Source of the DNA: Blastocatellia bacterium
Lineage (GTDB): Bacteria > Acidobacteriota > Blastocatellia > Chloracidobacteriales > JADJPF01
Assembly (NCBI GenBank): GCA_023265235.1
Contig: JAHFUF010000002.1
Location: forward strand, 1 to 32,393
Reading direction: 5' to 3'
Length of the DNA stretch: 32,393 bases
Positions 1 to 24,300 of the stretch are shown in pieces (position 1 is the first letter of the stretch; every line of letters starts with the position of its first letter). The notes beneath the pieces are model-generated. The model did no database searches, was not told the origin of the DNA, and saw only the letters and a list, made by a program, of their open reading frames with translations. Made by a program: the position numbers and the translations under genes.

Positions 1-1200
1 CTTTAACAACTACAGCAGCTTGTTTAATAGCGTTATAGCTATTTAAGACTGTTTCAATTTCTCCTAGTTCGATACGAAACCCTCTAACCTTTACTTGATT
101 GTCAATTCGTCCTAGAAACTCTATATTTCCATCTGCTAAGTAACGAGCTTGATCCCCTGTTGAATAAAGCCTTTCACCCAGCTTGTTACTAAATGGATTA
201 GGGATAAACCTTTCTGCTGTAAAGTCTGGACGATTGTAATATCCTCGCGCTAATGAAATGCCTCCAATATATAGCTCTCCTATTACTCCTATAGGAACAA
301 TTTTGTAGTTTTTATCAAGAATATAAGCTTTTGTATTAGCAATAGGCTTACCAATTGGTACTCTTTGTTTTTTGGCTTCACTAATACATTGATAGTAAGT
401 AGCATCTATAGTTGTTTCTGTTGGGCCATAAAGATTATAAAGCTCTGCTTTAGAAGACTTAAAGAAAAGCTCTTTTAATTGTGGACTTAAGGCTTCACCA
501 CCACAAAAAATTCGTTTTAGCTTGTTATTTGCAAACTCTTTTTCTTCAACAATTAGGCTTAAAAGCGATGGAACAAACTGAACTGTAGTAATGTTATTAC
601 TGCTAATAGTTTCTAATAAGTATTTTATATCCGAATTAAAGTCAGGTTTGGTTATTACTAGCTTTGCTCCAACAATTAGTGGAAGATAAAACTCACACAC
701 AGAAGCATCAAAACTAATAGGGGTTCTTTGTAATGTTGTATCTTCTGATGTTATAGAAAATCTGTCTTTCATCCAAATCATATGATTAGCTATAGCTTCT
801 TGGGTAATCATCACCCCTTTAGGCAAACCTGTAGACCCTGATGTATGAATTATATAGGCTATTTCCTGACCACTAATATTAAGTTTAGGGTTGTGTTTTG
901 CTGATGTGTTAAATATTGAGTCTTCTTTATCAAGATAGAGCTTAGCTACTTTTAGCTCAGAGGTTTGCTCTTTTAGCTCAGAATGAGTTATCAAAAGCTG
1001 TAGGTTTAAGTCATTAATAATAAAGTTTAGTCTATCTATTGGGTAATAAAGACTTAACGGTACATAAGCAACACCAACTTTTAGACTTGCTATCATAGCA
1101 ACAACTATTTCCAAACAGTTTTGCATATAAATGCCTACTACAGATTGTCTTTCTATTTGCGCTTTAAGATAGTTTGCAAGTTGATTAGCTTTCTCATTTA
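1..1200 (-). repeat. Tandem module duplication, distal A-domain copy (period 3162 nt)
   Basis: Aligns with 3163..4362 at a constant offset of 3162 nt (1054 codons). There is an 84-nt perfect match at 386-469 = 3548-3631. The translated A domains are nearly identical from NQLANYLK through GRIDxQVKxRGFRIELGEIE. The copy is truncated by the window edge. Confidence 0.85.
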
Positions 1201-4200
1201 ACTCTTGATAGGTAAGTACTTTGTTTTCAAAACTTACAGCTATAGATTCAGGAGTAAGTGCTACTTGTTTTTCAAATAGTTGATAAACAAACACATCTTT
1301 TGGATAGTTAACATCTGTTTGGTTAAACCCTTCTAATAGAATACTTTGCTCTTTATCATTTAATATTGGTAAGGTAGAAACCTTGTGACTAGGGTTATTT
1401 ATTAGTGACTCAAGTAAAACTTGATAATTTTCAAGCATCCTTGTTATGGTGTCATCTTCAAATAAACTAGTATTGTATGTTAATGATACTTCTAGTCCAT
1501 TGGATGTTTGAGTCATAGAACATGTTAAATCAAACTTTTCAATATTTGTCTCAATATCAAAGTAAGATAGTTCTAAATCATTGAGATTAAATGTTGATAA
1601 GTTATCTTCTTGGAGTAAAAACATAATTTGAAATATAGGAGAATAGCTTAAGCTTCTCTCAGGCTGGAGTAACTCAACTAGTTTTTCAAAAGGAATTTCT
1701 TGATGTGTATAAGCTTCTAAACAAGTTTCTCTTACTTTTTCTAACAACTCTAGAAATGAATCATTAGCCGAAAAACTAGTTCTTAATATCAGCGTATTAA
1801 GAAAAAAACCTATTAAACCTTCTGTTTCAGGATGGTTCCTTCCTGCTATTGGGCTGCCTACTATTATGTCTAGCTCTCCGCTATAACGATATAGCAAAAG
1901 CTTAAAGCTAGCTAACATTGTCATAAACAAAGTTGTGCTTGCTTTTTTACTTAAAGAAACTACCTTTTGACTTAACTCTTTTGAAACAATAGTTTGCTGT
2001 CGTCTGCCATGATGTGTTTGGTTTGTAGGTCTAGGTTTATCTATTGGTAAACTATGCAGAGGTTTAATACCTGAAAGCTTTTTCTCCCAATACTTAAATT
2101 CTTTTTCTAAAACCTCTCCTGATAACCTATCACGTTGCCATAAAGCATAGTCTACATATTGTATTGGTAATGGGTCAAAGCTAGGGGGTTGACCTGAAAT
2201 AAAACCTTGATAAAAGGAGCATAATTCTTGTAAAAAAATATTTATTGACCAAGCGTCTGAAACTATATGATGTGTGCTAAGTAATAAAATAGCAGACTCT
2301 TTTGACAATAAAAATAACATCACTCTTATTAAAGGCAATTTAGACAGGTCAAAAGCTTTACTGGCAACCTGTGTGATTAATTCTACACTTTTTTGTTTAC
2401 TTTCTACTTCTGATAAATGGGTTAAGTCTATTGTTTCTAGAGCAATATAAAAATCATCTTCTATTATTTGCACTGGTTGTTCTAAAAGAGTGCTAAACCT
2501 AGTACGTAGGCTTTTGTGTCTCTTTATAATTTCATTAACACTTTTTTCTAGGGCTGTTATATTTATAGTACCTGTTATTAATCTTGTTGTAGAGGTGTTA
2601 TAAACAGGACTATCAGGTTCAAACTCAGCCAAAAACCATAACCTTTGTTGGGCAAATGATAAAGGTAGCGATTTGGTTCTATCCACCACTATAGAGCTAA
2701 ATTCGTTAGCAGACCCAGAATAAAGCATTACTTTTTCTGCTAGGCTAGCCACAGTAGCCGAATCAAAAATATCTCGAATAGTCATTTTTATATTAAAGTT
2801 TTTTTGTATTCTAAAAATAATTTGTAAAGCTAAAAGCGAGTGACCTCCTAAAGCAAAAAAATTGTCATAAACTCCTATTTTTTCTCGTTTTAGTATTTCA
2901 GACCAAATTTTAACAACCTTTTCTTCTATGGTATTTCGAGGAGCAACAAAACCTTCTGATACTTCTATATCAGGGGTTGATAGTGCATTTCGGTCTATTT
3001 TCCCGTTTGGCATTAATGGAAAAAAGGGTAAAAAAACATAGCCTGTAGGGATCATATAACTTGGTAACTTAACTCTTAGTATCTGTTGAACTTCTTGTAA
3101 TGTCATCTCTATTGACTTTGTAACCAAGTAAGCAACTAAACCTTTATCCCCTTTACTATTTTCTTTAGCAAGGACTACAGCGTCTTTTATAGTTGGGATT
3201 TCTAAAAGTGCTGATTCAATTTCTCCCAACTCTATCCTAAATCCTCTTATTTTTACTTGACTGTCAATTCGTCCTAGAAACTCAATATTTCCATCAGTTA
3301 AGTAGCGAGCTAAGTCTCCTGTTGAATACAGCCTTTCACCTAGTTTGTCACCAAAAGGATTAGGGATAAACCTTTCTGCTGTAAAGTCTGGACGGTTGTA
3401 ATACCCTCGTGCTAATGCAACACCTCCAATAAACAACTCTCCTACTACTCCAATAGGCACAATATTTAAGTGTTTATCTAAAATATAAGTCTGTAAACCA
3501 TCAATAGGCTTACCAATTAGTACTGGCTGTTTTTTAGCATCATTAACACATTGATAGTAAGTAGCATCTATAGTTGTTTCTGTTGGGCCATAAAGATTAT
3601 AAAGCTCTGCTTTAGAAGACTTAAAGAAAAGTTCTCTTAATTGTAAGCTCAATGCTTCACCACCACAAAAAACTCGTTTTAGCTTGCTATCAGTAAACTC
3701 TTTTTCTTCAACAATTAGGCTTAAAAGTGATGGGACAAACTGAACTGTAGTGATGTTATAGCTGCTAATAGTTTCTAGTAAATATTTTATATCAGCATTA
3801 AGGTCAGGTTTGGTTAAAACTAGCCTTGCTCCAACAATTAGCGGAAGATAAAACTCCCATACAGAAGCATCAAAACTAATGGATGTTCTTTGTAATGTTG
3901 TATCTTCTGATGTTATAGAAAATCTATCTTTCATCCAAACCATATGATTAGTTATAGCTTCTTGGGTAATCATTACTCCTTTAGGCAAACCTGTAGACCC
4001 TGACGTGTGAATGATATAGGCTATTTCCTGACCACTAATATTAATTTTGGGGTTGTGTTTTGCTGATGTATTAAATATTGAGTTTTCTTTATCAAGATAG
4101 AGCTTAGCTACTTTTAGCTCAGAGACTTGCTCTTTTAGCTCAGAATGAGTTATCAAAAGCTGTAAGTTTAAGTCATTAATAATAAAATTTAATCTATCTA

Positions 4201-7200
4201 TTGGATAATAAAGACTTAGTGGGACATAAGCAATACCTGACTTTAGACTTGCTATCATAGCAACAACTATTTCCAAACAGCTTTGCATATAAATGCCTAC
4301 TATAGCTTGTCGTTCGATTTTCACTTTAAGATAGTTTGCAAGTTGATTAGCACGCTCGTTAAGTTGTTGATAAGTAAGCGACTTTCCTTCTAAGATCACA
4401 GCTATATTATTAGGTGTTTGTAAGGCTTGTTCTTGCAAAAGTTCAGGTAAAAATTTTTCTACACAATAACCCTTTTGCCAACTATTAAACCCCACTATTT
4501 GATTATATTCACTTTTATCTAAAAATGAGATTTGAGAAATAGGAGTTTTTCTATCAACTAATATTTTCTCTAACAAAGTTTGATAGTGTTTTGACATTCT
4601 TAAAATAGTGTTTTGATCAAAAAGGTCAGAATTATATTCCCACACTAAAGAAATCTGTTTTACATTAGAAGAAGAATTTGCTCCAATAGATTGTTCAAAA
4701 TGAGGGATAACAATAGCGGTAAGATCAAACTTAGAAGAGCCATTACTTAATGCTTCTGTTAGGTTTATGTCTACTTCAGGGAACTCTAGTTTTGGAATTT
4801 GCGCGTCATGGAAACTAAAAAACACTTGGCATATTGGAGAATAGCTTAAACTACGTGCTGGATTTACTGCATCAACAACCCTATCAAAAGGAATGTCTTG
4901 GTTTTCATAAGCTGCTAGTGTTGTGTGTTTTATTTTTTCTAATAAATCGTCAAACCTTTCTTCTTCTGACAAGATACTTCTTAGGACTATATTATTAACA
5001 AACATGCCTATAATATTTTCTACTTCTTGTAAGCGTCGATTAGCAATTGTTGAGCCTAAAGCTATATCTTTTTGACCACTATAACGATAAAGCAGGATTG
5101 TAAAAGCGGCAGACATCACCATAAATAATGTAGTTTCTTTCTCCCTGCTTAAATTACGTAGCGATTGACAAAGCTCTTCTGATAAGTGCTGTCTAAAGCT
5201 ACTACCTTGAAAAGTTTGCAGACTAGGGCGCACACGATCATAAGGAAGTGTTAGTAATGGAGGGCAACCTGTTAAATTGTTTTTCCAGTAAGCAGATTGA
5301 GCCTTGGCAGCTTGAGTTTCTAACCATTGATGTTGCCAAGCAGCAAAATCAACAAACTGTATTTTAAGCTCTTCTAATTTTGGATTCTGGCCTAAGTAGT
5401 AAGCTTGATAAAGAGTTACTAGCTCTTTAAGAAATACATTAAAAGACCAACCATCATGAACTATATGATGTTCACTATGAATTAAAACATGCTCTCTATG
5501 GCTTAAACGTATTATCAGCCAACGAATCAAATATAACTCTGATATATCAAACTCTTTAGAAATTTGATCATTAATTAATTTTTCTAACTTAAGTGTTTTT
5601 TCTGCTTCTGGTATTTCGCTTAAATTAATAACAGGAACACTATTAAAGTGATGTGGATGAATAATTTGTACTGGTTCTTCACCAACTATACTAAATGTAG
5701 TACGAAATATTTCATGTCTATTTATAATCTCATTAAAACACTTTTCTAGAATGTTAATGTTTAAGTTACCTTTTAACTCTAACTTAGAATGAAAAGTATA
5801 GGCTAAAGGGTTTGATGCTAGTTGTTGAATAAACCAAACTCTTTTTTGGGAAAACGATAGAGGTAAGGGCTGATGGCGAGGGATAGGAGTAATTTTTTCT
5901 ACAACTGACAAAGATTTTGATTTTGATAGGTCGAGTTTTTTGGCAAGCTGAGCTAAGGTTTCTGAGCTAAAAAAAGTACTTAAAGATAGTTCTACTTGAA
6001 AGTGTTCACGAATTCGACTAACTACCCTAGTTGCTAGTAAAGAATGTCCCCCTAGTTCAAAAAAATTATCAGACCTGCTTACATTTCTTACAGCTAAAAC
6101 TGTTTCCCAAATATTGGCTAATATTTTTTCTTCTTCTGTAGCAGGTGGGTCATAATCTCTAGCTTCACTTAATTCTTGGCTTAGAGCTAAAAGTGCTTTT
6201 CTATCTACTTTTTCATTTGCCGTTAGAGGAAACTCATCTATTTTAATAAATCGGCTAGGCACCATATGCTCTGGTAATTGTTTGCCCAAAAACTCTTTTA
6301 TCTCGTTTACAATAAAACCTACATTTTCTTTAACCCCTAGATATGCAATTAATTGTTTGTCTCCTAAAGGTGTCTCGCCTACTAATACAACACTTTGTTT
6401 AACTACAGGGTGTGTGTCCAAAACAGTTTCTATTTCACCCAATTCTATACGATAGCCTCTAACTTTTACTTGATTGTCTTTACGTCCAAAAAATTCAATA
6501 TTCCCATCTGGTAGATAACTAGCCAAATCTCCAACTTTATAAAGCCTTGCACCTGGTTTAGAGCTAAAAGGATTAGGAAGAAACCTTTCTGCTGTTAAGT
6601 CTGCTTTGGCTAAATATCCTCTTGCTAACCCGTCTCCTGATGTATAGAGTTCTCCCATAACTCCTATTGGTACAATATTAAAGTCTTCATCTACTATATA
6701 AATCTCTGTATTAGAAACAGGACATCCAATAGAAACTGTTCTACCTACTTGGCTTACATCTGTCATAACATAGCAGGAAGTAAAAGTAGTGTTCTCTGTT
6801 GGCCCATAGCCGTTAATTAGTGTTATTCCTGGTACTTGCTCTAGTAACTTCTTTACCTGTTTTACTCCTAGTACATCGCCTCCTGAGAATAGATATTTTA
6901 ACCCTCTAAAACAATCTATTTGTTCTTCTACCATTTGGTGAAATATGGCTGATATTAGCCAAAGAACTGTTATTTTGTATTCTTTTATTTTTCTTCCTAG
7001 ATCATTTAACGAAGGTTTGTAAGCAGGAAACACTACGAGTTTTGCACCATTGAGTAGGCTACCCCATATCTCAAAAGTAGAGACATCAAAAGAAATAGGT
7101 GTAAATTGTAAAAATACGTCCTGTGATTGGATTTTTATATAGTTAGTTTCTTTGATTAACCGAACTATTGATTGGTGACAAACAATCACTCCTTTAGGAT

Positions 7201-7594
7201 TACCCGTTGAACCTGACGTATATATAACATACGCCATATTTTCTGGTCTTACTAAAACGCTAAAATTACTGGTAGACTCTTTTTCTATTTCTTCCCAATC
7301 TTGGTCTAAACAAATAGTATTATTGCTTATAGCTTCTATTTTATCTCTTAACCTTTTTTGCGTTAAAATAACCTCTGCCTTAGCGTCTTTAATTAAGTAT
7401 TCTAGTCTTTTTTCAGGGTAAGCAGTTTCTAAAGGTAAGTATCCTGCACCTGCTTTTATAATAGCTAATACAGCAATTATCATTTCTAAGGAACGCTCTA
7501 AGCAAACTCCTACTAAGGTTTCTTCTTTTATTCCTTGTTTTCTTAAATAACTTGCTAATTGATTTGCTTTCTCGTTTAGCTCTTTATAGGTCAA
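1..7594 (-). CDS. Non-ribosomal peptide synthetase, 3' end runs off the left window edge: A-T-C-A-T-C-A(partial)
   Basis: Absent from the supplied ORF track because it has no stop inside the window. Hand translation of the minus strand (codon first bases at positions equal to 1 mod 3) is stop-free from 7684 to base 1. Motifs read directly, in order: first A domain YTSGSTG 7202-7222, NGYGPTE, GRKDNQVKVRGYRIELGEIE, NEKVDRK ~6200-6220. Carrier FELGGHS (Ser 6041-6043). C domain HHIVHDGWS 5444-5470. Second A domain HTSGSTG 3989-4009 with 10-residue code DAWQFGLIDK (Gln-type). Carrier ALGGHS (Ser 2837-2839). C domain HHIVSDAWS 2246-2272. Third A domain (code so far DACQFGLID) readable through GRIDNQVKVRGFRIELGEIE at ~60-120. 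Coordinate 7594 is the first canonical in-frame start (TTG) after the last upstream stop. The true start is uncertain. Confidence 0.9.
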   Translation of the reverse strand, partial: MTYKELNEKANQLASYLRKQGIKEETLVGVCLERSLEMIIAVLAIIKAGAGYLPLETAYPEKRLEYLIKDAKAEVILTQKRLRDKIEAISNNTICLDQDWEEIEKESTSNFSVLVRPENMAYVIYTSGSTGNPKGVIVCHQSIVRLIKETNYIKIQSQDVFLQFTPISFDVSTFEIWGSLLNGAKLVVFPAYKPSLNDLGRKIKEYKITVLWLISAIFHQMVEEQIDCFRGLKYLFSGGDVLGVKQVKKLLEQVPGITLINGYGPTENTTFTSCYVMTDVSQVGRTVSIGCPVSNTEIYIVDEDFNIVPIGVMGELYTSGDGLARGYLAKADLTAERFLPNPFSSKPGARLYKVGDLASYLPDGNIEFFGRKDNQVKVRGYRIELGEIETVLDTHPVVKQSVVLVGETPLGDKQLIAYLGVKENVGFIVNEIKEFLGKQLPEHMVPSRFIKIDEFPLTANEKVDRKALLALSQELSEARDYDPPATEEEKILANIWETVLAVRNVSRSDNFFELGGHSLLATRVVSRIREHFQVELSLSTFFSSETLAQLAKKLDLSKSKSLSVVEKITPIPRHQPLPLSFSQKRVWFIQQLASNPLAYTFHSKLELKGNLNINILEKCFNEIINRHEIFRTTFSIVGEEPVQIIHPHHFNSVPVINLSEIPEAEKTLKLEKLINDQISKEFDISELYLIRWLIIRLSHREHVLIHSEHHIVHDGWSFNVFLKELVTLYQAYYLGQNPKLEELKIQFVDFAAWQHQWLETQAAKAQSAYWKNNLTGCPPLLTLPYDRVRPSLQTFQGSSFRQHLSEELCQSLRNLSREKETTLFMVMSAAFTILLYRYSGQKDIALGSTIANRRLQEVENIIGMFVNNIVLRSILSEEERFDDLLEKIKHTTLAAYENQDIPFDRVVDAVNPARSLSYSPICQVFFSFHDAQIPKLEFPEVDINLTEALSNGSSKFDLTAIVIPHFEQSIGANSSSNVKQISLVWEYNSDLFDQNTILRMSKHYQTLLEKILVDRKTPISQISFLDKSEYNQIVGFNSWQKGYCVEKFLPELLQEQALQTPNNIAVILEGKSLTYQQLNERANQLANYLKVKIERQAIVGIYMQSCLEIVVAMIASLKSGIAYVPLSLYYPIDRLNFIINDLNLQLLITHSELKEQVSELKVAKLYLDKENSIFNTSAKHNPKINISGQEIAYIIHTSGSTGLPKGVMITQEAITNHMVWMKDRFSITSEDTTLQRTSISFDASVWEFYLPLIVGARLVLTKPDLNADIKYLLETISSYNITTVQFVPSLLSLIVEEKEFTDSKLKRVFCGGEALSLQLRELFFKSSKAELYNLYGPTETTIDATYYQCVNDAKKQPVLIGKPIDGLQTYILDKHLNIVPIGVVGELFIGGVALARGYYNRPDFTAERFIPNPFGDKLGERLYSTGDLARYLTDGNIEFLGRIDSQVKIRGFRIELGEIESALLEIPTIKDAVVLAKENSKGDKGLVAYLVTKSIEMTLQEVQQILRVKLPSYMIPTGYVFLPFFPLMPNGKIDRNALSTPDIEVSEGFVAPRNTIEEKVVKIWSEILKREKIGVYDNFFALGGHSLLALQIIFRIQKNFNIKMTIRDIFDSATVASLAEKVMLYSGSANEFSSIVVDRTKSLPLSFAQQRLWFLAEFEPDSPVYNTSTTRLITGTINITALEKSVNEIIKRHKSLRTRFSTLLEQPVQIIEDDFYIALETIDLTHLSEVESKQKSVELITQVASKAFDLSKLPLIRVMLFLLSKESAILLLSTHHIVSDAWSINIFLQELCSFYQGFISGQPPSFDPLPIQYVDYALWQRDRLSGEVLEKEFKYWEKKLSGIKPLHSLPIDKPRPTNQTHHGRRQQTIVSKELSQKVVSLSKKASTTLFMTMLASFKLLLYRYSGELDIIVGSPIAGRNHPETEGLIGFFLNTLILRTSFSANDSFLELLEKVRETCLEAYTHQEIPFEKLVELLQPERSLSYSPIFQIMFLLQEDNLSTFNLNDLELSYFDIETNIEKFDLTCSMTQTSNGLEVSLTYNTSLFEDDTITRMLENYQVLLESLINNPSHKVSTLPILNDKEQSILLEGFNQTDVNYPKDVFVYQLFEKQVALTPESIAVSFENKVLTYQELNEKANQLANYLKAQIERQSVVGIYMQNCLEIVVAMIASLKVGVAYVPLSLYYPIDRLNFIINDLNLQLLITHSELKEQTSELKVAKLYLDKEDSIFNTSAKHNPKLNISGQEIAYIIHTSGSTGLPKGVMITQEAIANHMIWMKDRFSITSEDTTLQRTPISFDASVCEFYLPLIVGAKLVITKPDFNSDIKYLLETISSNNITTVQFVPSLLSLIVEEKEFANNKLKRIFCGGEALSPQLKELFFKSSKAELYNLYGPTETTIDATYYQCISEAKKQRVPIGKPIANTKAYILDKNYKIVPIGVIGELYIGGISLARGYYNRPDFTAERFIPNPFSNKLGERLYSTGDQARYLADGNIEFLGRIDNQVKVRGFRIELGEIETVLNSYNAIKQAAVVVK
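3163..4362 (-). repeat. Tandem module duplication, proximal A-domain copy (period 3162 nt)
   Basis: Same evidence as 1..1200. Similarity decays upstream of about 4350, at the N-terminal part of the A domain and the C-A linker. Confidence 0.85.
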
Positions 7595-7712
7595 TTGTCG
7601 AGATTCAAATTCAATTGCTATAACTTCTGGAGTTGTTCTTACTACTTCTTCAAATAGTTCTACAATAGTCTTATCCTTTGGATAATTAGTAGCAGTATTA
7701 TTAATTTGCAAT
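6164..7712 (-). repeat. Starter A-domain cassette, copy 1 (direct repeat of 14723..16281)
   Basis: Colinear with the 5' end of the neighbouring NRPS gene at an offset of 8559-8569 nt. There is a 140-nt perfect match at 6633-6772 = 15192-15331, and 2 mismatches in 58 nt at 7383-7440 versus 15951-16008. Similarity ends exactly after the codons for SQELSE (6164 / 14723). Confidence 0.9.
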
Positions 7713-7756
7713 GGCAAGTCTTGCTTATCACAATGAGCTAGTTTTTTCTCTAACAT
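7595..7756 (-). other. Frame-broken 5' leader of the left NRPS gene (possible frameshift, pseudogenisation or sequencing error)
   Basis: ATG 7754-7756 has an AAAGG motif at 7762-7766 and is in the same frame as the gene body. That frame contains TGA 7727-7729 and TAA at 7724-7726, 7700-7702, 7697-7699 and 7685-7687. Segment 7681-7740 reads LAHCDKQDLPLQINNTATNY only in another frame, where it matches the paralogue (LSLQVNNTATNY). Left copy TATCAAAG (7676-7683) versus paralogue TATCCAAAG (16244-16252) shows a 1-nt deletion. Confidence 0.6.
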
Positions 7757-7876
7757 AAATACCTTTAAGTTTTAGAATTTATTAGAATGCTTAAAACTGT
7801 AAATTTTAGCTAAGGAGAGTCTTTAAAACCATATTAACCCACTAGGAAAAACATAGTAGGGGCGAACAGTTCACCC

Positions 7877-16611: not shown

Positions 16612-19600
16612 ATGACAGATTTTTCACATTTATCATTAACAGAGAAAAGAGAACTTCTAGCAAAATTATTACAAAAACCCTTAAAGGACAAAATATTTCC
16701 TTTGTCCTTTGCCCAACAACGTCTTTGGTTTTTGGATAAATTAGAGCCAATGAATTCTGCTTATAATATTTCTACAGGCTTTCTTTTAGAAGGAAACTTA
16801 AATGTAGAATACCTAGAACAAAGTATTAATGAAATTATTAAGAGACACGAAAGCCTAAGAACTAGTTTTGAAACAATTTCTGGCCAACCTAAACAAATTA
16901 TTAAAGAAGCGCGAAACCTGTCTTTAACAAAAGTGGATTTAGGACAAACCCCGTTAAATCAACAACAAGATGAAATAGCAGCAATTGCCTTAAAAGATGC
17001 TAAAGAACCTTTTGAACTCTCAGAGTGGCCATTGCTAAAAGTAAAACTACTTTATTTCTCAGAAAACAAACATGTACTACTCCTAGTAATTCATCACATT
17101 ATTAGCGACAATTGGTCTATTTCATTATTTCTACAAGAGTTACAAGAGTTTTATCAAGCTTTTTATTATAAAAGAGACCCTAAAATAAAACCTTTAAGAA
17201 TCCATTATGGCGATTTTTCGGTTTGGCAAAGAGAATATTTACAAGGAGAGGTTTTAGAAAAAGAATTAAGTTACTGGAAACAAAAACTAAGTAAAAACCT
17301 ACCTGTATTAAACTTAGCCTTAGATCACCCAAGGCCACCATTACAAAGCTACAAAGGGGCTAATATATTTATAGAAGTCCCAAAAGAAATCTTTGAGAAG
17401 CTAAAAAATATTTGCACCCAGCAACAAGTTACTTTATTTATCTTATTACTAACCGCTTTTAGTACACTGCTTTACAAATACACAGGACAAACAGATTTAC
17501 TTATAGGATCTCCTGTTGCTAATCGTAACCGTAGTGAATTTGAAGACTTAATTGGGCTACTAATTAATATGTTAGTCCTAAGAATAGACCTATCAGGAGA
17601 ACCAACTTTTCTTGAAATGCTCAAGCGTGTACGTGAAATTGTACTAGATGCTTGTGCTCACCAAGAAGTTCCTGTAGAAAAATTGGCTGAAGAAATACAA
17701 CCCCGACGAGATTTAAGCACCCCATTTGTACAAGCAAGTTTTTCTCTCAATGAAGGTGTGTCAAACTTGGTGTTACCAGAACTGGCAGTCACTAGATTAG
17801 TCATTCATAACAACACAGCAAAAGTAGACTTAAACCTAGAATTAAAAGAAGCTAATGGAGTGTTAACAGGAATTTTTAACTATAACTCTGATTTATTTGA
17901 TGAAAGTACGGTTAAACAAATCTCGTTAGACTTTGAAAACCTATTAACTTTTGTAACAAATAATCCAGAACAACATATTAATTTATTACCTAATTTAATA
18001 TTGCCCGCAGACAAAAAAAATTATGTTAATAATGAAGAAAAAACAAACTTAAGTTCTAATCAATTACTAGTTTGGTTAGGACAAAAATTACATCCTAATG
18101 TCCCGCTTTATAATATTCCAATCTTTGCCATTATTTCTGGTCAAATAGACATAGACAATTTACGACAAGCCTTTCAAATCTTGGTTAACTCTGCTGACAT
18201 GCTTAGAACAGTAATTGAAGAGGTTCAAGGAGTAGCACAACAAAAAGTGTTGTCAGAATTAAATTACTTACTTGATTATTTTGATTTTTCAAACCTTACT
18301 TCAGAGTCGCAACTACAAGATTGGATGGTGGAAAAGTCACAATATATTTTTAATAACAACGAAGTCCTCTTTTACTCTGCCCTAGTGAAACTGCCTAATA
18401 ATAGCCTAGCATGGTATCTCAATATGCATCATTTGATTGGAGATGGTTGGTCAGGGCCATTAATTTTTGAGCGTGTATCAGAGATTTACCAACAATTGGT
18501 ATCTGATAGCTTTGAGACTTTTTCACTACCTCAATTTCAAGATTATTTGTTAAAAGAAAAACAAGAAAAAGCTTCTAAACGTTATTTATCTGCTCTGAAT
18601 TATTGGCAGAAAAAGCTATCAATAACTGCTGAACCAATTGTTTTTTATGGGCAAAAAAATGAAAAAATATCTACAAAAATTAAGCGTATTAAATATAACA
18701 TTAATACTGAAAATACTAATAAGTTAAAAGCTATTACTACAGAAGAAAATATCTCGATTCTTAATATTTTTACCGGGCTGCTTTTTACTTATTTGTACCG
18801 TATTAGCGGACACTCGTTAATTTCTATTGGCGTACCTTTTCATAACCGCCGTAGTAAAGCTTTTAAGCATACCATTGGGCCGTTTATGGAAGTATTGCCA
18901 TTACAAGTTAGTATTTCTAAGGAAGAAACTTTTGCTTCACTAATTAAAAAAGTAAAATTAGAGACTTTTGAAATACTTCGCCATGATATTTCTGTAAATA
19001 ATCCTATTAATCGTAAACATTACGATGTTTTTCTTAATTATCATAGTGAGGGACAATACAAGTTCAATTTTAATAACAAGGCTGTAGATGTTGGTTGGGT
19101 AGCAACTGGTTATGAAACCTACAATTTAGCCTTACAGGTTCATGATTTTGGGCTACTAGGGAATTTTGTTATAGATTTTGACTTCAACACAGAGCTTTTT
19201 GATCAGGAGCAACAAACTTGGGTAATAAATCATTTTACTCAACTGCTAAATATTTATTTAACTCAAGGTAGCCAAACAAGTCTAAAAAATACTAGCTTAC
19301 TTCTGCCAGAAGAACGAGAGCATATCTTATTAGGTTTTAATCAAAGTCAGCAAAATGTTCCTTTTGAACAAAACTTTGCACAGCTTTTTACCCAACAAGT
19401 AGCTAAGAATAGAGAAAAAATTGCTGCTGTTTATGGCAAAGAACAACTAACGTATCAAGAGCTAAACTTTCGTGCTAATAAATGTGCTCAGCAGCTTATA
19501 GACAAAGGAATTGGCCTAGACAACATAGTAGGATTGTTTGCACGACGGGGCTTAGAGCTACTTATTTCTATTTTAGCTGTGTTTAAGGCTGGTGCAGCCT

Positions 19601-21300
19601 ATTTACCGCTAGATCCAAATTATCCAGCCAAAAGACTTAGCTATATCCTTAATCATAGTGAAACAAAAACCATTCTAGTTACTAGGGAGATGAAAACTAG
19701 TTTAATTACTAGTCTACAAGAATTACCTAAAACAGAATGGCCAGAAATTATTGAAATAGAAGAATTATTAGAACAAACCATTGATGTTAAAGAAATAACC
19801 TCTCCTGTCCAACCGGATAATCTTGCTTATGTAATATACACTTCTGGTTCAACAGGGCTGCCAAAAGGTGCAATGGTAGCTAGTAAAGGGATGATAAACC
19901 ACTTATATGCTAAAGTTTTTGACTTAAAACTTACAGAAAAAGATTATATCGCACAAACTGCTTCACAATGTTTTGACATCTCTGTTTGGCAATTTCTCTC
20001 AGCATTAATTGTAGGTGGCAAAGTAGAAATTATTGACGATGAAATAGTGCTAGATCCTTTAAGACTACTTAACTTAGTGGCTAGCCAGCAAATATCTATC
20101 CTAGAAGTAGTTCCATCACTACTTAGCGCGATGTTAAATAGTATTACTGTTCAAAAACCAAATCTATCTCTTTTAAGATGGCTGGTTGTAACTGGAGAAG
20201 CCTTTGCTCCAGAACTCTGTCGTCAATGGATGTTAGACTATCCAGAAGTTCTAGTAATGAATGCTTATGGCCCAACAGAGTGTTCTGATGATGTTACTCA
20301 TTATTTAATTACTTCTACATTGCCTAAAGAAATGACTTATATGCCAATAGGCTGTCCAGTAATTAATATGCAGCTTTATATACTAGACCAGCATTTATCT
20401 CCTGTACCTATTGGAGTTGTAGGAGAAATCTATGTAGGAGGAATTGGAGTAGGACGAGGTTACTTAAAAGATCCTGAAAAAACTGCCAATGTCTTTTTGC
20501 CTAATCCTTTTGCAATGTCATCAGGAGAAAGACTTTATAAAACAGGTGACCTAGGAAGATGGTTAATAAACGGCGAAATAGAGTTTTTAGGCAGAATAGA
20601 CCATCAAATAAAAATACGCGGTTTCCGTATAGAGCTAGGAGAAATAGAATCTGTATTAAGAGAATATCCTGAAGTTAAAGACGTTGTTGTAGTAGCCAAA
20701 TCTTTAGATACTACCGAAAACACCGAAAACACTAATAGCTTAAAAACTAGCCAAGATAACGTAATTGTTGCTTATTTAGTGGCAAGAAGCTCACAATTCC
20801 TTATTAGCAGCTTACGTGAGTTTATGCAGGAAAAATTGCCTGACTATATGGTGCCAGGGTTGTTTATGTTCTTAGACACTTTACCTCTTAACCCTAATGG
20901 TAAAGTAGATCGCGCTCTACTTCCTGAACCAAAAAGGGATCGTGAGCAAACACAAAACCATTATATCGCCCCTAGCACAGAGGTTGAGCAACAGATTGCT
21001 AATGTTTGGGGAAGGTTATTAAAAATAGATAAAATAGGGGTTAATGACAATTTTTTTGACCTAGGAGGACATTCACTTTTACTTGTCCAGGTGCAAAACA
21101 AACTAAAAGAGCTTGTAGGAAAAGAAATACCTTTAGTGGAAATGTTTCGCCATCCTACAGTAAGTTCTCTAGCTAATTATTTTACTCAGCTAACTCAGAC
21201 TCTTAAGCAAGTTGACCAGGAAGATTTTTCAGAAGTTAAAGAACGTGCAAGAAAACGTACAACTACAAAACGCCAAAGACCGCAGGGGGCTTATGAATAA
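16612..21300 (+). CDS. Non-ribosomal peptide synthetase, 1562 aa: C-C-A-T
   Basis: ORF track entry. Domain order:
- N-terminal helix LSLTEKRELLAKLLQK.
- C1, aa 27-455: LSFAQQRLWFL, HHIISDNWS at nt 17092-17118.
- C2, aa 478-895: EntF/DhbF-like N-terminus LSSNQLLVWLGQKLHPNVPLYN, HHLIGDGWS at nt 18427-18453.
- A, aa 920-1435: YTSGSTGLPKG, NAYGPTECSDD, YKTGD, NGKVDR. Code DIWEVTADDK.
- T: DLGGHS Ser1488, nt 21073-21075.
- Basic tail KERARKRTTTKRQRP. Confidence 0.95.
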   Translation: MTDFSHLSLTEKRELLAKLLQKPLKDKIFPLSFAQQRLWFLDKLEPMNSAYNISTGFLLEGNLNVEYLEQSINEIIKRHESLRTSFETISGQPKQIIKEARNLSLTKVDLGQTPLNQQQDEIAAIALKDAKEPFELSEWPLLKVKLLYFSENKHVLLLVIHHIISDNWSISLFLQELQEFYQAFYYKRDPKIKPLRIHYGDFSVWQREYLQGEVLEKELSYWKQKLSKNLPVLNLALDHPRPPLQSYKGANIFIEVPKEIFEKLKNICTQQQVTLFILLLTAFSTLLYKYTGQTDLLIGSPVANRNRSEFEDLIGLLINMLVLRIDLSGEPTFLEMLKRVREIVLDACAHQEVPVEKLAEEIQPRRDLSTPFVQASFSLNEGVSNLVLPELAVTRLVIHNNTAKVDLNLELKEANGVLTGIFNYNSDLFDESTVKQISLDFENLLTFVTNNPEQHINLLPNLILPADKKNYVNNEEKTNLSSNQLLVWLGQKLHPNVPLYNIPIFAIISGQIDIDNLRQAFQILVNSADMLRTVIEEVQGVAQQKVLSELNYLLDYFDFSNLTSESQLQDWMVEKSQYIFNNNEVLFYSALVKLPNNSLAWYLNMHHLIGDGWSGPLIFERVSEIYQQLVSDSFETFSLPQFQDYLLKEKQEKASKRYLSALNYWQKKLSITAEPIVFYGQKNEKISTKIKRIKYNINTENTNKLKAITTEENISILNIFTGLLFTYLYRISGHSLISIGVPFHNRRSKAFKHTIGPFMEVLPLQVSISKEETFASLIKKVKLETFEILRHDISVNNPINRKHYDVFLNYHSEGQYKFNFNNKAVDVGWVATGYETYNLALQVHDFGLLGNFVIDFDFNTELFDQEQQTWVINHFTQLLNIYLTQGSQTSLKNTSLLLPEEREHILLGFNQSQQNVPFEQNFAQLFTQQVAKNREKIAAVYGKEQLTYQELNFRANKCAQQLIDKGIGLDNIVGLFARRGLELLISILAVFKAGAAYLPLDPNYPAKRLSYILNHSETKTILVTREMKTSLITSLQELPKTEWPEIIEIEELLEQTIDVKEITSPVQPDNLAYVIYTSGSTGLPKGAMVASKGMINHLYAKVFDLKLTEKDYIAQTASQCFDISVWQFLSALIVGGKVEIIDDEIVLDPLRLLNLVASQQISILEVVPSLLSAMLNSITVQKPNLSLLRWLVVTGEAFAPELCRQWMLDYPEVLVMNAYGPTECSDDVTHYLITSTLPKEMTYMPIGCPVINMQLYILDQHLSPVPIGVVGEIYVGGIGVGRGYLKDPEKTANVFLPNPFAMSSGERLYKTGDLGRWLINGEIEFLGRIDHQIKIRGFRIELGEIESVLREYPEVKDVVVVAKSLDTTENTENTNSLKTSQDNVIVAYLVARSSQFLISSLREFMQEKLPDYMVPGLFMFLDTLPLNPNGKVDRALLPEPKRDREQTQNHYIAPSTEVEQQIANVWGRLLKIDKIGVNDNFFDLGGHSLLLVQVQNKLKELVGKEIPLVEMFRHPTVSSLANYFTQLTQTLKQVDQEDFSEVKERARKRTTTKRQRPQGAYE

Positions 21301-24300
21301 CGAAAATGACACTCTAGACACAGCAATTGCAATTATAGGGATGGCTTGCCGCTTTCCTGAAGCAAACAATATTGCTGAGTTATGGCAAAACCTAAAAAAT
21401 GGTATTGAGTCAATTAAGTTTTTTTCTAAAGAAGAATTGTTAGCCGTTGGTATTGAAGAAACTTTACTTGATAATCCTAACTATATTAGAGCCAAAGCAT
21501 TTTTGTCACACATAGACAAATTTGATGCCTCCTTTTTTGGCTATAGCCCAAAAGAAGCTGAGTTAATTGACCCACAACAAAGAATTTTCTTAGAACTTGC
21601 TTGGCAAGCTCTAGAAATAGCTGGTTATGATAGTGAACAATACCCTGGCCAAATAGGAGTTTATGCTGGAATCGGCTTAAATACTTACTTATTAAATAAT
21701 CTAATTAATAACACAGATATATTTACTTCATCTCGTAGACATCAAGCGGTTTTAGGTAATGACAAAGATTTTCTCCCTACAAGGGTTTCATATAAATTAA
21801 ACCTAACTGGGCCAAGTATGACTGTACAAACAGCCTGTTCAACTTCCCTAGTAGCAACCTGTTTAGCCTGCCAAAGCTTGTTAGACTACCACTCAGATAT
21901 AGCACTAGCCGGAGGAGTAAGTGTTACTATTTGGCAAAAGAAAGGCTATTTTCATGAAGAAGGAGGAATTTATTCTCGTGATGGGCATTGTCGTGTTTTT
22001 GATGCTCAATCTACAGGCACAGCAGCAGGAGAAGGAGCAGGAATTGTAGTATTAAAACGCTTAAAAGAAGCCCTAGCAGATGGAGACAGTATTTATGCAG
22101 TAATCAAAGGGTTCGCACTTAATAATGATGGCTCAGAAAAAATTGGCTATACCGCCCCAAGTGTTGATGGTCAGGCTAATGTAATCGCCGAGGCTCAAGC
22201 AGTAGCAAATGTTACTCCAAAAGAAATTACTTACGTAGAGACTCATGGCACAGGGACAATTTTAGGCGACCCAATAGAAATTGCAGCATTAACAAAAGCT
22301 TTTCGCGGTAGTACAGATAAAACCTGTGCTATTGGCTCAATAAAAAGTAATTTTGGTCATACAGACACTGCCGCAGGCGTAGCAGGTTTGATAAAAACTG
22401 CCTTGGCGTTACAAAACAAGCAAATTCCTCCTACTCTACATTTTGAAACCCCCAACCCTAATATTGATTTCACCAATAACCCTTTTTATGTAAACAAAAC
22501 ACTTATACCTTGGGAAACCTCTATGTTACCTCGACGTGCTGGTGTTAGTTCTTTTGGTATCGGTGGTACTAACGCACATTTAGTACTAGAAGAAGCACCA
22601 GAAAGCATAAATAGCCCAACTAAAAAACCTTGGCAATTACTAGTGCTATCAGCTAAAACAGAAAATGCTTTGGAAATGGCTAGTAAAAACTTAGCAGAAT
22701 ATTTAATTGCAAACCCTGAAAGCAACTTAGCAGATATTGCTTATACTTTACAAATTGGACGACGAGCCTTTTCACACCGGCGAATAATAGCTAGTAATAG
22801 CACTAGTCATGCTATTGAAACACTTAAAGTTAATAACCCTCAACAGGTCTTTACTAGCCATAACATAGATAGTAAACCGCCTGTAGTGTTTATGTTTTCT
22901 GGACAAGGTTCACAATATATTGGAATGGCTAAAGAGCTTTATCAGAACGAACCTATTTTCCAAAAATATCTAGACAAATGTTTTGCAATACTTAAAACCA
23001 ACCTAGATATGGACTTACATAGTATAATTTACCCTAATGAACAGAATAAATTGGCCTCAGCAATCGAACTAGACCGTATTTTGTTTACATTACCTGCCTT
23101 ATTTTCTATAGAGTATTCCCTAGCCAGGTTTTGGATAGAATTAGGAGTAAAGCCTTGGGCAATGATAGGTTACAGCCAAGGAGAATATATAGCGGCTTGT
23201 CTTTCAGGAGTATTTTCCTTAGAAGACGCATTAGCTTTGGTTTTAGCCAGAGGTAGGTTAATGGAAACTTTGCCTAAAGGAGCTATGTTAAGTGTAGCAA
23301 TGTCAGAAACAGAACTACTTAATATACTCCCTTCTGAACTATCCTTAGCAATTGTTAGCTCTGATAACCTATCCATAGCGTCAGGAGATATTCAAGCAAT
23401 AGAAGACTTTTTTAATTTTCTTACTAATAAAGAAATAGAGTGTAAAAAACTAAACGTCCACCATGCTTATCATTCGCATATGGCTAAGCCTATTTTGGAG
23501 CATTTTACCCAAGAGGTAAAAAAAATCAGCCTACATCCTCCACAAATACCTTATTTATCAAATGTTACAGGGACTTGGATTACTAAAGAGCAGGCTACTG
23601 ATCCTAGTTACTGGTCTAAACACTTACGTCAAACTGTTAGATTTTCTGATGGCTTAATTGAGCTATTTAAACAAAAAGAGTTGTTACTCTTAGAAGTTGG
23701 CCCTGGAAAAAGATTAACAGCTTTAACACAACTGCATATTAACAAAAAGCCTCAACATACAGTGGTAGCTTCTTTACCTCCTCCAAGTTTTACCGAATCT
23801 GAACACGCTTTTTTTCTTAATTCACTAGGAAAGCTCTGGTTATCAGGAGTAAAAATTAGCTGGTTAAAATATTATGGTGATGAACAAAGACACCGAATTA
23901 ACTTACCTACATACCCATTTGAGCGCGACAGTTATTGGATAAATGCACCAAATCAAACTAATAATTCAAAGGCTAATAGTTTAGTTGATGACTTAGCACC
24001 TAAACCAAACATAAGTGATTGGTTTTATTTTCCTAGTTGGAAACAAATGCCTTATTTGCTGACAAATAGCGAAGATGTCGAATTTAGTCCTAAAAATTAC
24101 TTGGTTTTTGCAAATGAAACGCCTCTTTGTGAGAGGGTTTTAACCGAGCTAAACTTTTTAGGTCATCAAGTAACTTCAGTAAAACTAGGAGAGGGGTTTT
24201 CCAAACTCCTAGATAATTACTATGTTAATTTTTCTCAAAATAGCTATGAGCAATTGTTTCCATCTCTCGCTAGTAACAATAAATCGCCTGATATTATTAT

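What the first reader, a model, noticed from the sequence alone, without database searches (positions are those of the whole stretch)
6164..7712. Near-identical starter adenylation cassette heads both minus-strand NRPS genes, with mosaic identity centred on the specificity pocket
About 1.55 kb at the 5' ends of the two genes (6164-7712 and 14723-16281) form a direct repeat 8.56 kb apart.

The flanks are almost identical, with 140 nt perfect at 6633-6772 = 15192-15331. The central A3-A5 segment is far more diverged. For example, 7081-7140 versus 15641-15700 has roughly a third of positions different by eye.

The divergent core carries the changed pocket residues. The codes are DVFWFGGTFK (left) and DALWLGGTFK (right), differing at positions 236, 239 and 299.

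Both copies share odd motif variants, PLETAYP instead of PLDPxYP and NEK instead of NGK in A10, so they are true duplicates.

This pattern is what is expected from gene conversion of the flanks, or from exchange of the specificity subdomain. The repeat is also a substrate for deleting the entire 8.5-kb gene.
Basis: partly seen in the sequence, partly recalled or inferred. Interest (0 to 1): 0.65.

Follow-up and report, generated by a model that had tools for sequence, protein, structure and literature searches.

The report
Duplicated, recombined NRPS adenylation domain
Two neighbouring peptide-synthetase genes of an uncultured groundwater bacterium both begin with a copy of the same amino-acid-activating domain; the two copies have been patched together by recombination so that only the substrate pocket differs, and in one gene the copy has no carrier domain of its own.

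Summary
A direct repeat of about 1.56 kb (6161-7717 and 14720-16285, minus strand, 8.56 kb apart) encodes a complete adenylation (A) domain at the head of both NRPS genes. Identity is 83.8% overall, with a 140-nt perfect tract and a core between motifs A3 and A5 that differs at 27% of positions.

Synonymous divergence differs about ninefold between zones (0.13 to 1.2) while dN/dS stays near 0.15. Site patterns against a relative switch topology (p = 6.5e-17). The mosaic therefore reflects recombination, not selection on the pocket. This is the known kind of Acore subdomain exchange and gene conversion.

In gene B the copy has no carrier domain and is fused directly to a second A domain. Gene B is A-A-T-C-A-T-C-[A9/A10 stub]-T, so its last module has lost its A domain. 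The two genes are old collinear paralogues on which the A1 domain, T2 and the tail are younger patches.

My leading guess (about 0.45) is that the orphan A domain is active and charges a non-adjacent carrier. It could also be a dispensable relic.

A deletion between the repeats is plausible, and relatives show module gain or loss of that type, but none was observed here.

The parts
1..7756 (-). Gene A (5' part; runs off the window). Domain order A1-T1-C1-A2(Gln code)-T2-C2-A3(Gln-like)-..., 2786 aa in full on an ENA contig.
6161..7717 (-). Left copy of the repeated A domain (gene A residues 14-532). All motifs A1-A10 are present. Code DVFWFGGTFK.
6791..7240 (-). Left copy, divergent Acore segment (motif A3 to just past A5). 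It is 68-77% identical to the right copy and is of the same type as L007 and L008.
6633..6772 (-). Left copy, 140-nt tract identical to 15192-15331 (the stretch from just after motif A5 to motif A6).
5939..6121 (-). T1 carrier domain of gene A, directly after its A1 copy. This makes a true A-T initiation module.
7757..7876 (-). Gene B - gene A intergenic spacer (120 nt). No terminator-like site, no similarity to the region upstream of gene B, and conserved in L008.
7877..16324 (-). Gene B, 2815 aa. Domain order A1-A2'-T1'-C1'-A3'(Gly code)-T2'-C2'-[A9/A10 stub]-T3'.
14720..16285 (-). Right copy of the repeated A domain (gene B residues 14-535). All motifs A1-A10 are present. Code DALWLGGTFK. 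No carrier domain follows.
15350..15799 (-). Right copy, divergent Acore segment (gene B residues 176-325). It is the outlier relative to gene A, L008 and L007. No closer donor was found.
15192..15331 (-). Right copy, 140-nt tract identical to 6633-6772.
13205..14692 (-). Second A domain of gene B (A2', code DASIIAGICK), fused about 35 residues after motif A10 of the A1 copy. About 45% identical to every other A domain here.
12956..13147 (-). T1' carrier domain, the first carrier domain in gene B. It follows A2', not A1.
8375..9676 (-). Last condensation domain of gene B (C2'), 52% identical to C2 of gene A.
8285..8371 (-). Stub of a deleted A domain (LPTHITPSAFVFLEEPPKNSNGKIDQQSL, motifs A9-A10 only). 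Homologous to the end of the last A domain of L008's gene.
8039..8224 (-). T3', the terminal carrier domain of gene B, with no A domain in its module. The gene B tail (8353-7898), which contains T3', is 75% nt / 61.5% aa identical to the tail of L008's gene.
9719..10118 (-). Second younger patch shared with gene A (= 2717-3113; A9/A10 plus T2; 73-78% nt; T2 dS 0.68).
16325..16611 (.). Divergent intergenic region between gene B and gene C. Homologous to the gene C-like / A1-headed-gene intergenic region of L007. Contains TTGACA-17-GATTAT at 16398-16370 (minus strand).

Best explanation
WHAT IT IS (shown). One adenylation domain (A1) is present in two paralogous copies, at the heads of two tandem, probably co-transcribed NRPS genes. 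The source is an AT-rich uncultured groundwater bacterium; a flanking gene points to Acidobacteriota.

Gene A uses its copy in a normal initiation module (A1-T1). Gene B carries its copy as a carrier-less A domain fused to a second A domain. Gene B's last module (C-T) has lost its own A domain except for an A9/A10 stub. Gene B therefore still has 3 A, 3 T and 2 C domains, but in the permuted order A-A-T-C-A-T-C-T.

HOW THE MOSAIC AROSE (shown that it is recombination; the order of events is inferred). The two genes are old collinear paralogues. C1, the middle A domain and C2 are 50-52% identical, with saturated dS. The A1 domain, T2 and the C-terminal tail are younger patches on that background.

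Inside A1, the N-terminal part (dS 0.32), the A5-A6 tract (dS 0.13, including 140 identical nt) and the C-terminal subdomain (dS 0.60) have been homogenised at different times by gene conversion between the copies. The A3-A5 Acore segment of gene B's copy has a separate, older ancestry (dS 1.2, at least as far from gene A as the relative L007 is). That segment either escaped conversion or was swapped in from an unsampled A domain. The breakpoints sit at the conserved A3 and A5 motifs.

CONSEQUENCE (inferred). The segment changes pocket positions 236, 239 and 299. Gene B's copy becomes a near-consensus Val code. Gene A's copy is nearest to a code reported in an Ala-activating domain. The two copies are thus predicted to activate different small aliphatic amino acids.

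FUNCTION OF THE ORPHAN COPY (inferred, about 0.45). It is catalytically active and aminoacylates a carrier domain that is not its neighbour. The most likely target is gene B's own A-less terminal T3'. Alternatives are T1', or the A-less terminal T of gene D. Genes A and B would then be alternative or parallel initiation synthetases with related C-terminal docking tails.
For: Repeat, mosaic and codes.

Recombination rather than selection:
- dS for A versus B is 0.32, 1.22, 0.13 and 0.60 in the four zones, with dN/dS 0.05-0.16.
- Heterogeneity of synonymous differences across zones: chi-square p = 6e-9.
- Three-taxon site patterns [A=B, A=L7, B=L7] are 82/18/18, 25/64/32, 33/2/4 and 42/30/30 by zone, p = 6.5e-17.

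Architecture of gene B:
- Motif map.
- Pfam order A, A, PP, C, A, PP, C, PP on an independent ENA contig.
- The linker sequence.
- The A9/A10 stub and T3'.
- An independent zero-mismatch contig across both junctions.

Collinear paralogy and younger patches.

Gene B's head is in the ancestral position. Its intergenic region is homologous to that of L007, where a gene C homologue faces an A1-T-C-A-T gene and there is no gene B (Smith-Waterman 45 against null 23.6 +/- 2.8). Its first 15 codons pattern with L007.

The orphan copy looks active:
- All ten A motifs are intact, including the P-loop and the A10 lysine. Its A7 and A9 motifs are closer to consensus than gene A's.
- Pfam AMP-binding 1-384/384 and AMP-binding_C 1-76/76, with the same score as gene A's copy.
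- By my own three-point split of the counts, dN/dS on the branch to gene B is about 0.18-0.22.
- DALWIGGTFK is reported as the commonest Val code (PMC12283262).
- A 151-nt piece of gene B's core recurs with one mismatch in a freshwater metagenome from a different study.

Need for remote loading: the cluster has more carrier domains than A domains, because gene B's last module and gene D's last module are both C-T without an A domain.

Known framework:
- Acore subdomain swaps are the dominant natural route of NRPS diversification (PMC8097286).
- A carrier loaded by a non-adjacent A domain is proposed for thalassospiramide (PMC10510592).
- Tandem alternative starter synthetases AptA1/AptA2 (PMC8402340).
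Against: - No donor for gene B's core was found. The best match outside the family is 65-67% aa, against 71% to gene A's orthologue. 'Swap' and 'old paralogue that escaped conversion' therefore cannot be separated. With only four sequences no formal GARD/RDP analysis was possible.
- dS values near 1 are close to saturation and have wide errors.
- The low dN/dS of the orphan copy could be borrowed. Gene conversion from gene A's working copy, and a recently imported working core, would both make a dead domain look constrained. There is no orthologue of gene B with which to measure constraint since the fusion.
- In both documented tandem A-A cases (PyrG, AurA) the first A domain is inactive or dispensable.
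- Natural recombination strongly preserves the Asub-T interface, and the orphan copy lacks that interface.
- In the L008 lineage the gene-B-type tail is cut by an inserted ORF, which suggests gene B can be lost.
- The substrate calls rest on 9-of-10 code matches only.
Confidence: 0.6

Rival explanations
1. The orphan A1 copy of gene B is a dispensable relic. A rearrangement placed (or left) it in front of a complete A2'-T1' starter. It is kept open only because it lies in frame upstream of working modules, and it looks healthy because gene conversion from gene A keeps repairing it. The A-less T3' is charged in trans by another A domain, for example gene A's Gln-type A3, whose own tail is the closest paralogue of gene B's tail.
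For: In the tandem A-A precedents the first A domain is inactive (PyrG) or dispensable (AurA). The Asub-T interface is the part nature preserves, and it is absent here. The A9/A10 stub and T3' derive from a gene-A-type last module. Gene conversion tracts cover most of the domain. The gene-B-type tail is disrupted in L008.
Against: Unlike PyrG, all catalytic motifs are intact, including the A3 P-loop and the A10 lysine. The non-converted core also shows dN/dS 0.15 and encodes a coherent near-consensus Val pocket. Gene B's domain count is balanced at 3 A: 3 T.
Confidence: 0.35
2. There was no recombination. After one duplication, the pocket region of one copy diverged quickly under positive or relaxed selection, while the rest stayed similar under purifying selection.
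For: The divergent segment coincides with the specificity-conferring residues. dN in the core is four times that of the N-terminal flank.
Against: Synonymous divergence rises in step (dS 1.2 against 0.32, 0.13 and 0.60), so dN/dS is flat at about 0.15. Third-position differences alone pick out the same segment. Site patterns against L007 change topology between zones. A 140-nt perfect tract within 84%-identical sequence is not expected without conversion.
Confidence: 0.05
3. Assembly artefact. The assembler collapsed or mis-joined two similar A domains in a metagenome, creating a false A-A fusion or a false second copy.
For: The source is a low-depth metagenome (about 7x). Contigs break inside the repeat, at 7388 and 15221.
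Against: The A1|A2' junction (14704-14720) and the C|stub|T junction lie in unique sequence. A zero-mismatch independent contig, 7388-15221, spans both. An ENA assembly gives the identical 2815-aa protein followed by gene A. L008 from a different assembly confirms gene A's copy end to end, together with a gene-B-type tail upstream of it.
Confidence: 0.03

Closest known systems
Acore subdomain exchange / gene conversion between NRPS A domains (Baunach et al. 2021, PMC8097286; hormaomycin and microcystin examples cited there)
   Same: Breakpoints lie inside Acore at conserved motifs (A3 and A5). The Asub subdomain and the N-terminal part are retained. The exchanged piece carries the pocket residues and changes the predicted substrate. 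The partners are modules of the same cluster or family.
   Different: No donor module could be identified. The two partners are copies at the heads of two tandem genes, not orthologues in different strains. One partner is not part of a normal module.
Tandem A domains in PyrG (pyridomycin) and AurA (auriculamide) (review PMC10510592)
   Same: Two A domains in a row precede a single carrier domain at the start of a synthetase.
   Different: In PyrG the first A domain lacks the A3 motif residues and the catalytic lysine. Here all ten motifs are intact, and the same protein also has an A-less C-T module.
A-less modules served by a non-adjacent or separate A domain (thalassospiramide, WS9326A; review PMC10510592)
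   Same: C-T modules without an A domain (the ends of gene B and gene D), in a cluster with one A domain that has no carrier partner.
   Different: Loading has not been demonstrated. Here the A-less state is visibly recent, because an A9/A10 stub remains. No shuttling thioesterase-like enzyme or free-standing A-T protein is seen in the window.
Alternative starter synthetases AptA1/AptA2 of Anabaena sp. 90 (Rouhiainen et al. 2010, as summarised in PMC8402340)
   Same: Two tandem paralogous initiation NRPS genes whose first A domains differ in specificity. Their C-terminal tails are related, judging gene A's tail by its proxy in L008.
   Different: AptA1 and AptA2 keep the same architecture and the same second residue. 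Here the downstream modules differ (Gln-Gln versus Gly plus an A-less module), and one starter is permuted.

Membership tests
NRPS adenylation domain (ANL superfamily) | Full-length AMP-binding plus AMP-binding_C domains | tested here: met
   Both copies match PF00501 over 1-384/384 (302 bits each) and PF13193 over 1-76/76.
NRPS adenylation domain (ANL superfamily) | Core motifs A1-A10, including the A3 P-loop, Asp235 and the A10 lysine | tested here: met
   All ten motifs were found in both copies. Family-specific variants are PLE for PxD in A2 and NEK for NGK in A10. Gene A's copy has YKVGD in A7.
Canonical NRPS initiation module (A-T) | A carrier (PP-binding) domain directly follows the A domain | tested here: met
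   This row concerns gene A's copy. T1 has its GGHSL motif at residue 569, and PF00550 matches 546-606.
Canonical NRPS initiation module (A-T) | A carrier domain directly follows the A domain (gene B's copy) | tested here: not met
   About 35 residues after A10 the next A domain begins. The first carrier domain is at residues 1060-1123, after A2'.
Natural Acore subdomain swap (Baunach et al. 2021) | Breakpoints within Acore, with Asub and the neighbouring parts retained | tested here: met
   The best segment is codons 177-319/331, from motif A3 to A5, with 0 of 200 permutations reaching it. The zone-wise dS values agree.
Natural Acore subdomain swap (Baunach et al. 2021) | The exchanged piece is closer to another module (a donor) than to its own orthologue or paralogue | tested here: inconclusive
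   Gene B's core is the outlier relative to gene A, L008 and L007. No closer donor was found: 65-67% against 71%. The search for homologous proteins returned only hits of roughly the query's length.
PyrG-type tandem A domains (inactive first A) | The first A domain lacks the A3 residues and the catalytic lysine | tested here: not met
   TSGSTGEPKG and NEKVDR (with the lysine) are present in gene B's first A domain.
A-less module loaded by a remote A domain (thalassospiramide-type) | A C-T module with no A domain | tested here: met
   Gene B's last module is C2', then a 29-residue A9/A10 stub, then T3'. Gene D ends in C-T.
A-less module loaded by a remote A domain (thalassospiramide-type) | The carrier is aminoacylated by an A domain of another module | not testable with these tools
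   This needs biochemistry.
Alternative starter synthetases (AptA1/AptA2-type) | Tandem paralogous initiation genes with no N-terminal C domain, whose first A domains have different pockets | tested here: met
   Both genes start with the A1 copy. The codes differ at three positions. The genes are collinear paralogues.
Alternative starter synthetases (AptA1/AptA2-type) | Otherwise equivalent modules feeding the same downstream synthetase | tested here: inconclusive
   The downstream modules differ in pocket codes (Gln/Gln-like versus Gly plus A-less). The tails are related only via the L008 proxy (61.5% aa). Gene A's own tail is outside the window.

The most novel reading that the evidence does not exclude
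Gene B is a naturally domain-permuted NRPS. Its N-terminal carrier-less A domain is active and charges the carrier of the A-less C-terminal module of the same protein (or of a partner subunit) about 2,200 residues away. The subunit would then make a tripeptide even though one A domain has in effect moved from the last module to the front. That would be a natural demonstration that an A domain need not be contiguous with its carrier. It would also be an evolutionary intermediate showing how modules are rewired.
Probability: 0.3. Interest if true: 0.65.

Novelty: new variant of a known kind. Interest (0 to 1): 0.45.

Why it matters
The mosaic itself is one more clean natural example of the rule that NRPS specificity evolves by recombination inside Acore. 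It has unusually well-resolved layers: four zones of different age within one 1.56-kb domain. It comes from a poorly sampled lineage rather than from cyanobacteria or Pseudomonas.

The more interesting point is the architecture. A motif-complete A domain without a carrier sits in the same protein as a module that has just lost its A domain, with the stub still visible. If the orphan domain works, this gives engineers a natural template for remote or in-trans loading and for A3-A5 fusion points. If it does not work, it is a dated snapshot of how assembly lines decay and are rebuilt.

The relatives L007 and L008 show that module-sized gains or losses between A-domain repeats have occurred in this family. 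Product diversity within the population is therefore likely.

Tried and rejected
- Search for orthologous clusters. The genome-contig scan with gene B gave only relatives of 35% identity or less. The metagenome-contig scan with the A1 copy gave 54% or less. Only L007 and L008 are informative, so no GARD/RDP-style analysis with many taxa was possible.
- Search for the donor of gene B's core. The word-indexed search returned only short proteins of 67% identity or less. The exhaustive representative search ranks by summed score over many A domains. Re-BLASTing its 150 hits gave nothing above 65% apart from gene B itself.
- Search for other A-A-T proteins. In the A1-A2'-T1' search only one hit covered more than 54% of the query (P0105, 65%, not examined), and the hits were all 1299-1978 aa long. 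Absence is therefore not established.
- Deletion or inversion variants in reads. Only Logan contigs at about 7x depth or less were available. No 8.56-kb joint was seen. One 'joint' in X3 (6070 to 13275) has a 20-nt side and 184 unmatched letters, and I regard it as spurious.
- Promoter and terminator scans around both gene starts were not above shuffled expectation. The TTGACA-17-GATTAT site upstream of gene B is noted because the hexamer-containing stretches also stand in L007's intergenic region, by eye in the alignment.
- Literature search for the exact ten-letter codes found nothing. Only one-off neighbours were found.
- A simple tandem duplication of an L007-like two-module gene followed by replacement of the interior with foreign DNA was my first model. 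I dropped it as the sole model once the interior of gene B proved collinear with gene A at 50-52% aa (C1 with C1, C2 with C2, T2 with T2).
- The ORF that cuts the gene-B-type tail in L008 gave no Pfam hit. I do not name it.
Full report
LAYOUT OF THE WINDOW

The window carries a hybrid NRPS/PKS cluster at 33.5% GC.

On the minus strand there are two genes:
- Gene B is 16324..7877 and encodes 2815 aa.
- Gene A starts at ATG 7756 and runs off the left edge. On an ENA metagenome contig that carries the identical gene B, gene A is 2786 aa.

On the plus strand there are four genes:
- Gene C (16612-21300) has the order C-C-A-T.
- Gene D (21212-28987) has the order KS-AT-KR-ACP-E-like-C-T.
- There is a CcbP-like protein.
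- There is an 838-aa beta-propeller/cytochrome c protein.

All named homologues of the 838-aa protein come from Acidobacteriota/Blastocatellia MAGs. The sequencing runs that hold the locus are groundwater metagenomes.

CHECKING THE OBSERVATION

Similarity begins at codon 14 of both genes (7717 / 16285). It ends 14 residues after motif A10 (6161 / 14720). Beyond those points identity drops to 35-53%.

Over 1581 aligned nt there are 256 differences (83.8% identity) and a 9-nt indel. The longest identical run is 140 nt, at 6633-6772 = 15192-15331.

The profile is strongly non-uniform. A two-breakpoint maximum chi-square picks codons 177-319 (177-331 with third positions alone). That segment has 27% differences against 16% overall, and none of 200 permutations reaches the value.

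The odd motifs (PLETAYP, NEK) are in both copies. They are also in the relative L007, and L008 has NEK with PLEAAYP, so they are family traits. 'Almost identical flanks' is too strong: most of the flanks are 82-93% identical.

IS IT AN ASSEMBLY ARTEFACT?

No. Three independent lines agree:
- A Logan contig of run X1 covers 7388-15221 without a mismatch. It spans gene A's start, the spacer, all of gene B's tail and the A1|A2' junction. It stops inside the identical tract, as expected for a repeat.
- An ENA assembly gives the same 2815-aa protein with Pfam order A, A, PP, C, A, PP, C, PP, followed by gene A.
- L008, from a different NCBI MAG assembly, matches gene A's copy at 94-100% through all zones. 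Upstream of it L008 carries a remnant of a gene-B-type tail.

WHAT THE TWO COPIES ARE PART OF

Gene A is A1-T1-C1-A2-T2-C2-A3..., so its copy is a normal initiation module.

Gene B is A1-A2'-T1'-C1'-A3'-T2'-C2'-stub-T3'. About 35 residues after motif A10 of A1, the next A domain starts. There is no carrier domain between them.

At the other end of gene B, the last C domain is followed by only 29 residues of an A domain (LPTHITPSAFVFLEEPPKNSNGKIDQQSL, motifs A9-A10). A carrier domain and a docking-type tail follow.

Gene B thus has three A, three T and two C domains, the count of a normal three-module starter synthetase, but with one A domain at the wrong end. Gene D also ends in a C-T module without an A domain.

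RELATIVES AND HISTORY

Only two close relatives were found.

L007 (Logan, 12.4 kb):
- A gene C homologue faces an A1-T-C-A-T gene, with no gene B between them.
- Its intergenic region is homologous to the gene B - gene C spacer of the window (Smith-Waterman score 45 against 23.6 +/- 2.8 for shuffles, 0 of 300 reaching it).
- The region upstream of gene A matches neither.
- Gene B's head therefore sits in the ancestral, promoter-proximal position.

L008 (6.2 kb):
- It is 92.8% identical to gene A but has only two modules.
- Its second A domain is a hybrid. The 5' part matches the window's A2 (90-94%) and the 3' part matches the window's A3 (96-100%).
- So a module-sized deletion or insertion by recombination between A-domain repeats has occurred in this family.
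- Upstream of L008's gene lie the last 63 codons of a gene-B-type tail, cut by an unrelated ORF.
- The tail of gene B (stub + T3' + stop) is 75% nt / 61.5% aa identical to the tail of L008's gene.

Domain by domain, gene B is collinear with gene A:

| Gene B domain | Gene A partner | aa identity | Background to other domains |
|---|---|---|---|
| C1' | C1 | 51% | 36-40% |
| A3' | A2 | 49% | 40-46% |
| T2' | T2 | 71% | 39-62% |
| C2' | C2 | 52% | 37-42% |

These values are. dS is saturated (1.3-1.5) in the C domains and the middle A domain, but is 0.68 in T2.

My reading is that the two genes are old tandem paralogues, and that A1, T2 and the tail are younger patches on them. A2' has no specific partner (about 45% to every other A domain).

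I cannot order the events that inserted A2' (or A2'-T1') behind A1 and removed the last A domain.

WHY THE MOSAIC MEANS RECOMBINATION

I used Nei-Gojobori estimates for gene A's copy against gene B's copy:

| Zone (codons) | dS | dN/dS |
|---|---|---|
| 16-175 | 0.32 | 0.15 |
| 176-325 (core) | 1.22 | 0.15 |
| 326-395 | 0.13 | 0.05 |
| 396-530 | 0.60 | 0.16 |

The difference in synonymous changes among zones is significant (p = 6e-9). Selection on the pocket would raise dN, not dS.

With L007 as a third taxon, I counted sites supporting A=B, A=L7 and B=L7:

| Zone | A=B | A=L7 | B=L7 |
|---|---|---|---|
| Codons 16-175 | 82 | 18 | 18 |
| Core | 25 | 64 | 32 |
| A5-A6 tract | 33 | 2 | 4 |
| C-terminal subdomain | 42 | 30 | 30 |

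Heterogeneity across zones gives p = 6.5e-17. In the core, gene B's copy is at least as distant from gene A (dS 1.2, dN 0.19) as L007 is (dS 0.81, dN 0.09). L007 and L008 both carry the gene-A-type core.

Two histories fit:
- The core of gene B's copy was imported from another A domain.
- The duplication is older than the split from L007, and everything except the core has since been homogenised in several conversion events.

I could not find a donor. The best outside match is 65-67% aa, against 71% to gene A's orthologue.

In the near-identical tract, A-B, A-L8 and B-L8 are all about equally close (dS 0.09-0.13). That conversion therefore dates to around the split of the window and L008 lineages.

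CONSEQUENCE FOR SPECIFICITY

The core carries positions 235-301 of the code. The remaining positions (322, 330, 331, 517) are identical in the two copies.
- DALWLGGTFK is one residue from DALWIGGTFK, reported as the commonest Val code.
- DVFWFGGTFK is one residue from DVFWLGGTFK, listed within an Ala-activating domain (PMC12283262).

I take this only as a prediction that the two copies prefer different small aliphatic substrates.

IS THE ORPHAN COPY FUNCTIONAL?

For:
- All ten motifs are intact. Gene B's copy is closer to consensus than gene A's in A7 and A9.
- The Pfam matches are full length with equal scores.
- By my own three-point split of the counts, dN/dS on the branch to gene B is about 0.2.
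- The pocket is coherent.
- Gene B's domain count is balanced.
- The cluster has more carriers than A domains.
- Part of gene B's core recurs almost unchanged in a freshwater metagenome from another study.

Against:
- In the two documented tandem A-A cases the first A domain is inactive or dispensable (PyrG, AurA; PMC10510592).
- Natural recombination conspicuously preserves the Asub-T interface (PMC8097286), which this copy lacks.
- Gene conversion from gene A could keep a dead copy looking healthy.
- The L008 lineage appears to have lost an intact gene B.

I put about 0.45 on 'active, charging a non-adjacent carrier, most likely T3''. I put about 0.35-0.4 on 'dispensable relic'. The rest goes to other roles.

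COMPARISON WITH WHAT IS KNOWN

- The mosaic is a further instance of Acore subdomain exchange and conversion, which Baunach et al. showed to be the main natural route of NRPS diversification.
- Two tandem initiation genes with different first-A specificities recall AptA1/AptA2. Here, however, the downstream modules differ.
- Tandem A domains and A-less modules each have precedents.
- I found no described case of a motif-complete, carrier-less A domain together with a freshly A-less module in one protein, but my search for such architectures was limited.

I therefore rate the whole as a new variant of a known kind, of moderate interest.

THE REPEAT AS A DELETION SUBSTRATE

A crossover in the 140-nt identical tract would remove 8,559 bp. 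It would leave a promoter-proximal hybrid A1 (gene B's core, gene A's Asub) in front of T1-C1-.... That arrangement has the same layout as L007.

The A2/A3 hybrid in L008 shows that such events happen in this family. No such joint was seen in the contigs available, which are shallow and drop rare variants. The prediction stands untested.

Noticed in passing
window 21212-28987 (+): Gene D reads KS-AT-KR-ACP, then an epimerase-like condensation-family domain (TIGR01720, 71 bits, just under the cutoff), then C-T with no A domain and no A remnant. An E-like domain after a PKS ACP, and a second A-less terminal module in the cluster, are both unusual.
   Followed up: partly
window 16612-21300 (+): Gene C begins with two condensation domains in tandem (C-C-A-T). 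Its A domain has the code DIWEVTADDK, which I could not assign. L007 has a 1561-aa homologue at 74% nt identity.
   Followed up: partly
window 4363-3598 versus 1201-436 (-); L008 4000-5415: A2 and A3 of gene A are about 90% identical over roughly 770 nt. The single second A domain of L008 is a 5'-A2 / 3'-A3 hybrid. This indicates a whole T-C module gained or lost by recombination between A-domain repeats.
   Followed up: yes
L008 1-542 and 530-718: An unassigned ORF (no Pfam hit) ends 12 nt into a 63-codon remnant of a gene-B-type carrier/docking tail lying upstream of L008's gene A orthologue. It looks like an insertion that truncated gene B in that lineage.
   Followed up: partly
window 9719-10118 versus 2717-3113 (-): A second patch of raised similarity between genes B and A covers motifs A9/A10 and the T2 carrier domain (73-78% nt; T2 71% aa, dS 0.68). 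The surrounding domains are at saturated divergence.
   Followed up: partly
window 21212-21300: The longest ORF of gene D (TTG start) overlaps the end of gene C by 89 nt. The real start of gene D is probably further downstream.
   Followed up: no
window 29011-32377 (+): Next to the cluster lie a CcbP-like calcium-binding protein and an 838-aa beta-propeller/cytochrome c protein. All named homologues of the latter are from Acidobacteriota (Blastocatellia) MAGs. This hints at the source organism, despite the low GC of 33.5%.
   Followed up: partly
window 7756-7718 versus 16324-16286 (-): The first 13 codons of the two genes are unrelated to each other. Gene B's pattern with L007's N-terminus, while gene A's are conserved only in L008. 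Gene A therefore acquired a new start when the copies arose.
   Followed up: partly
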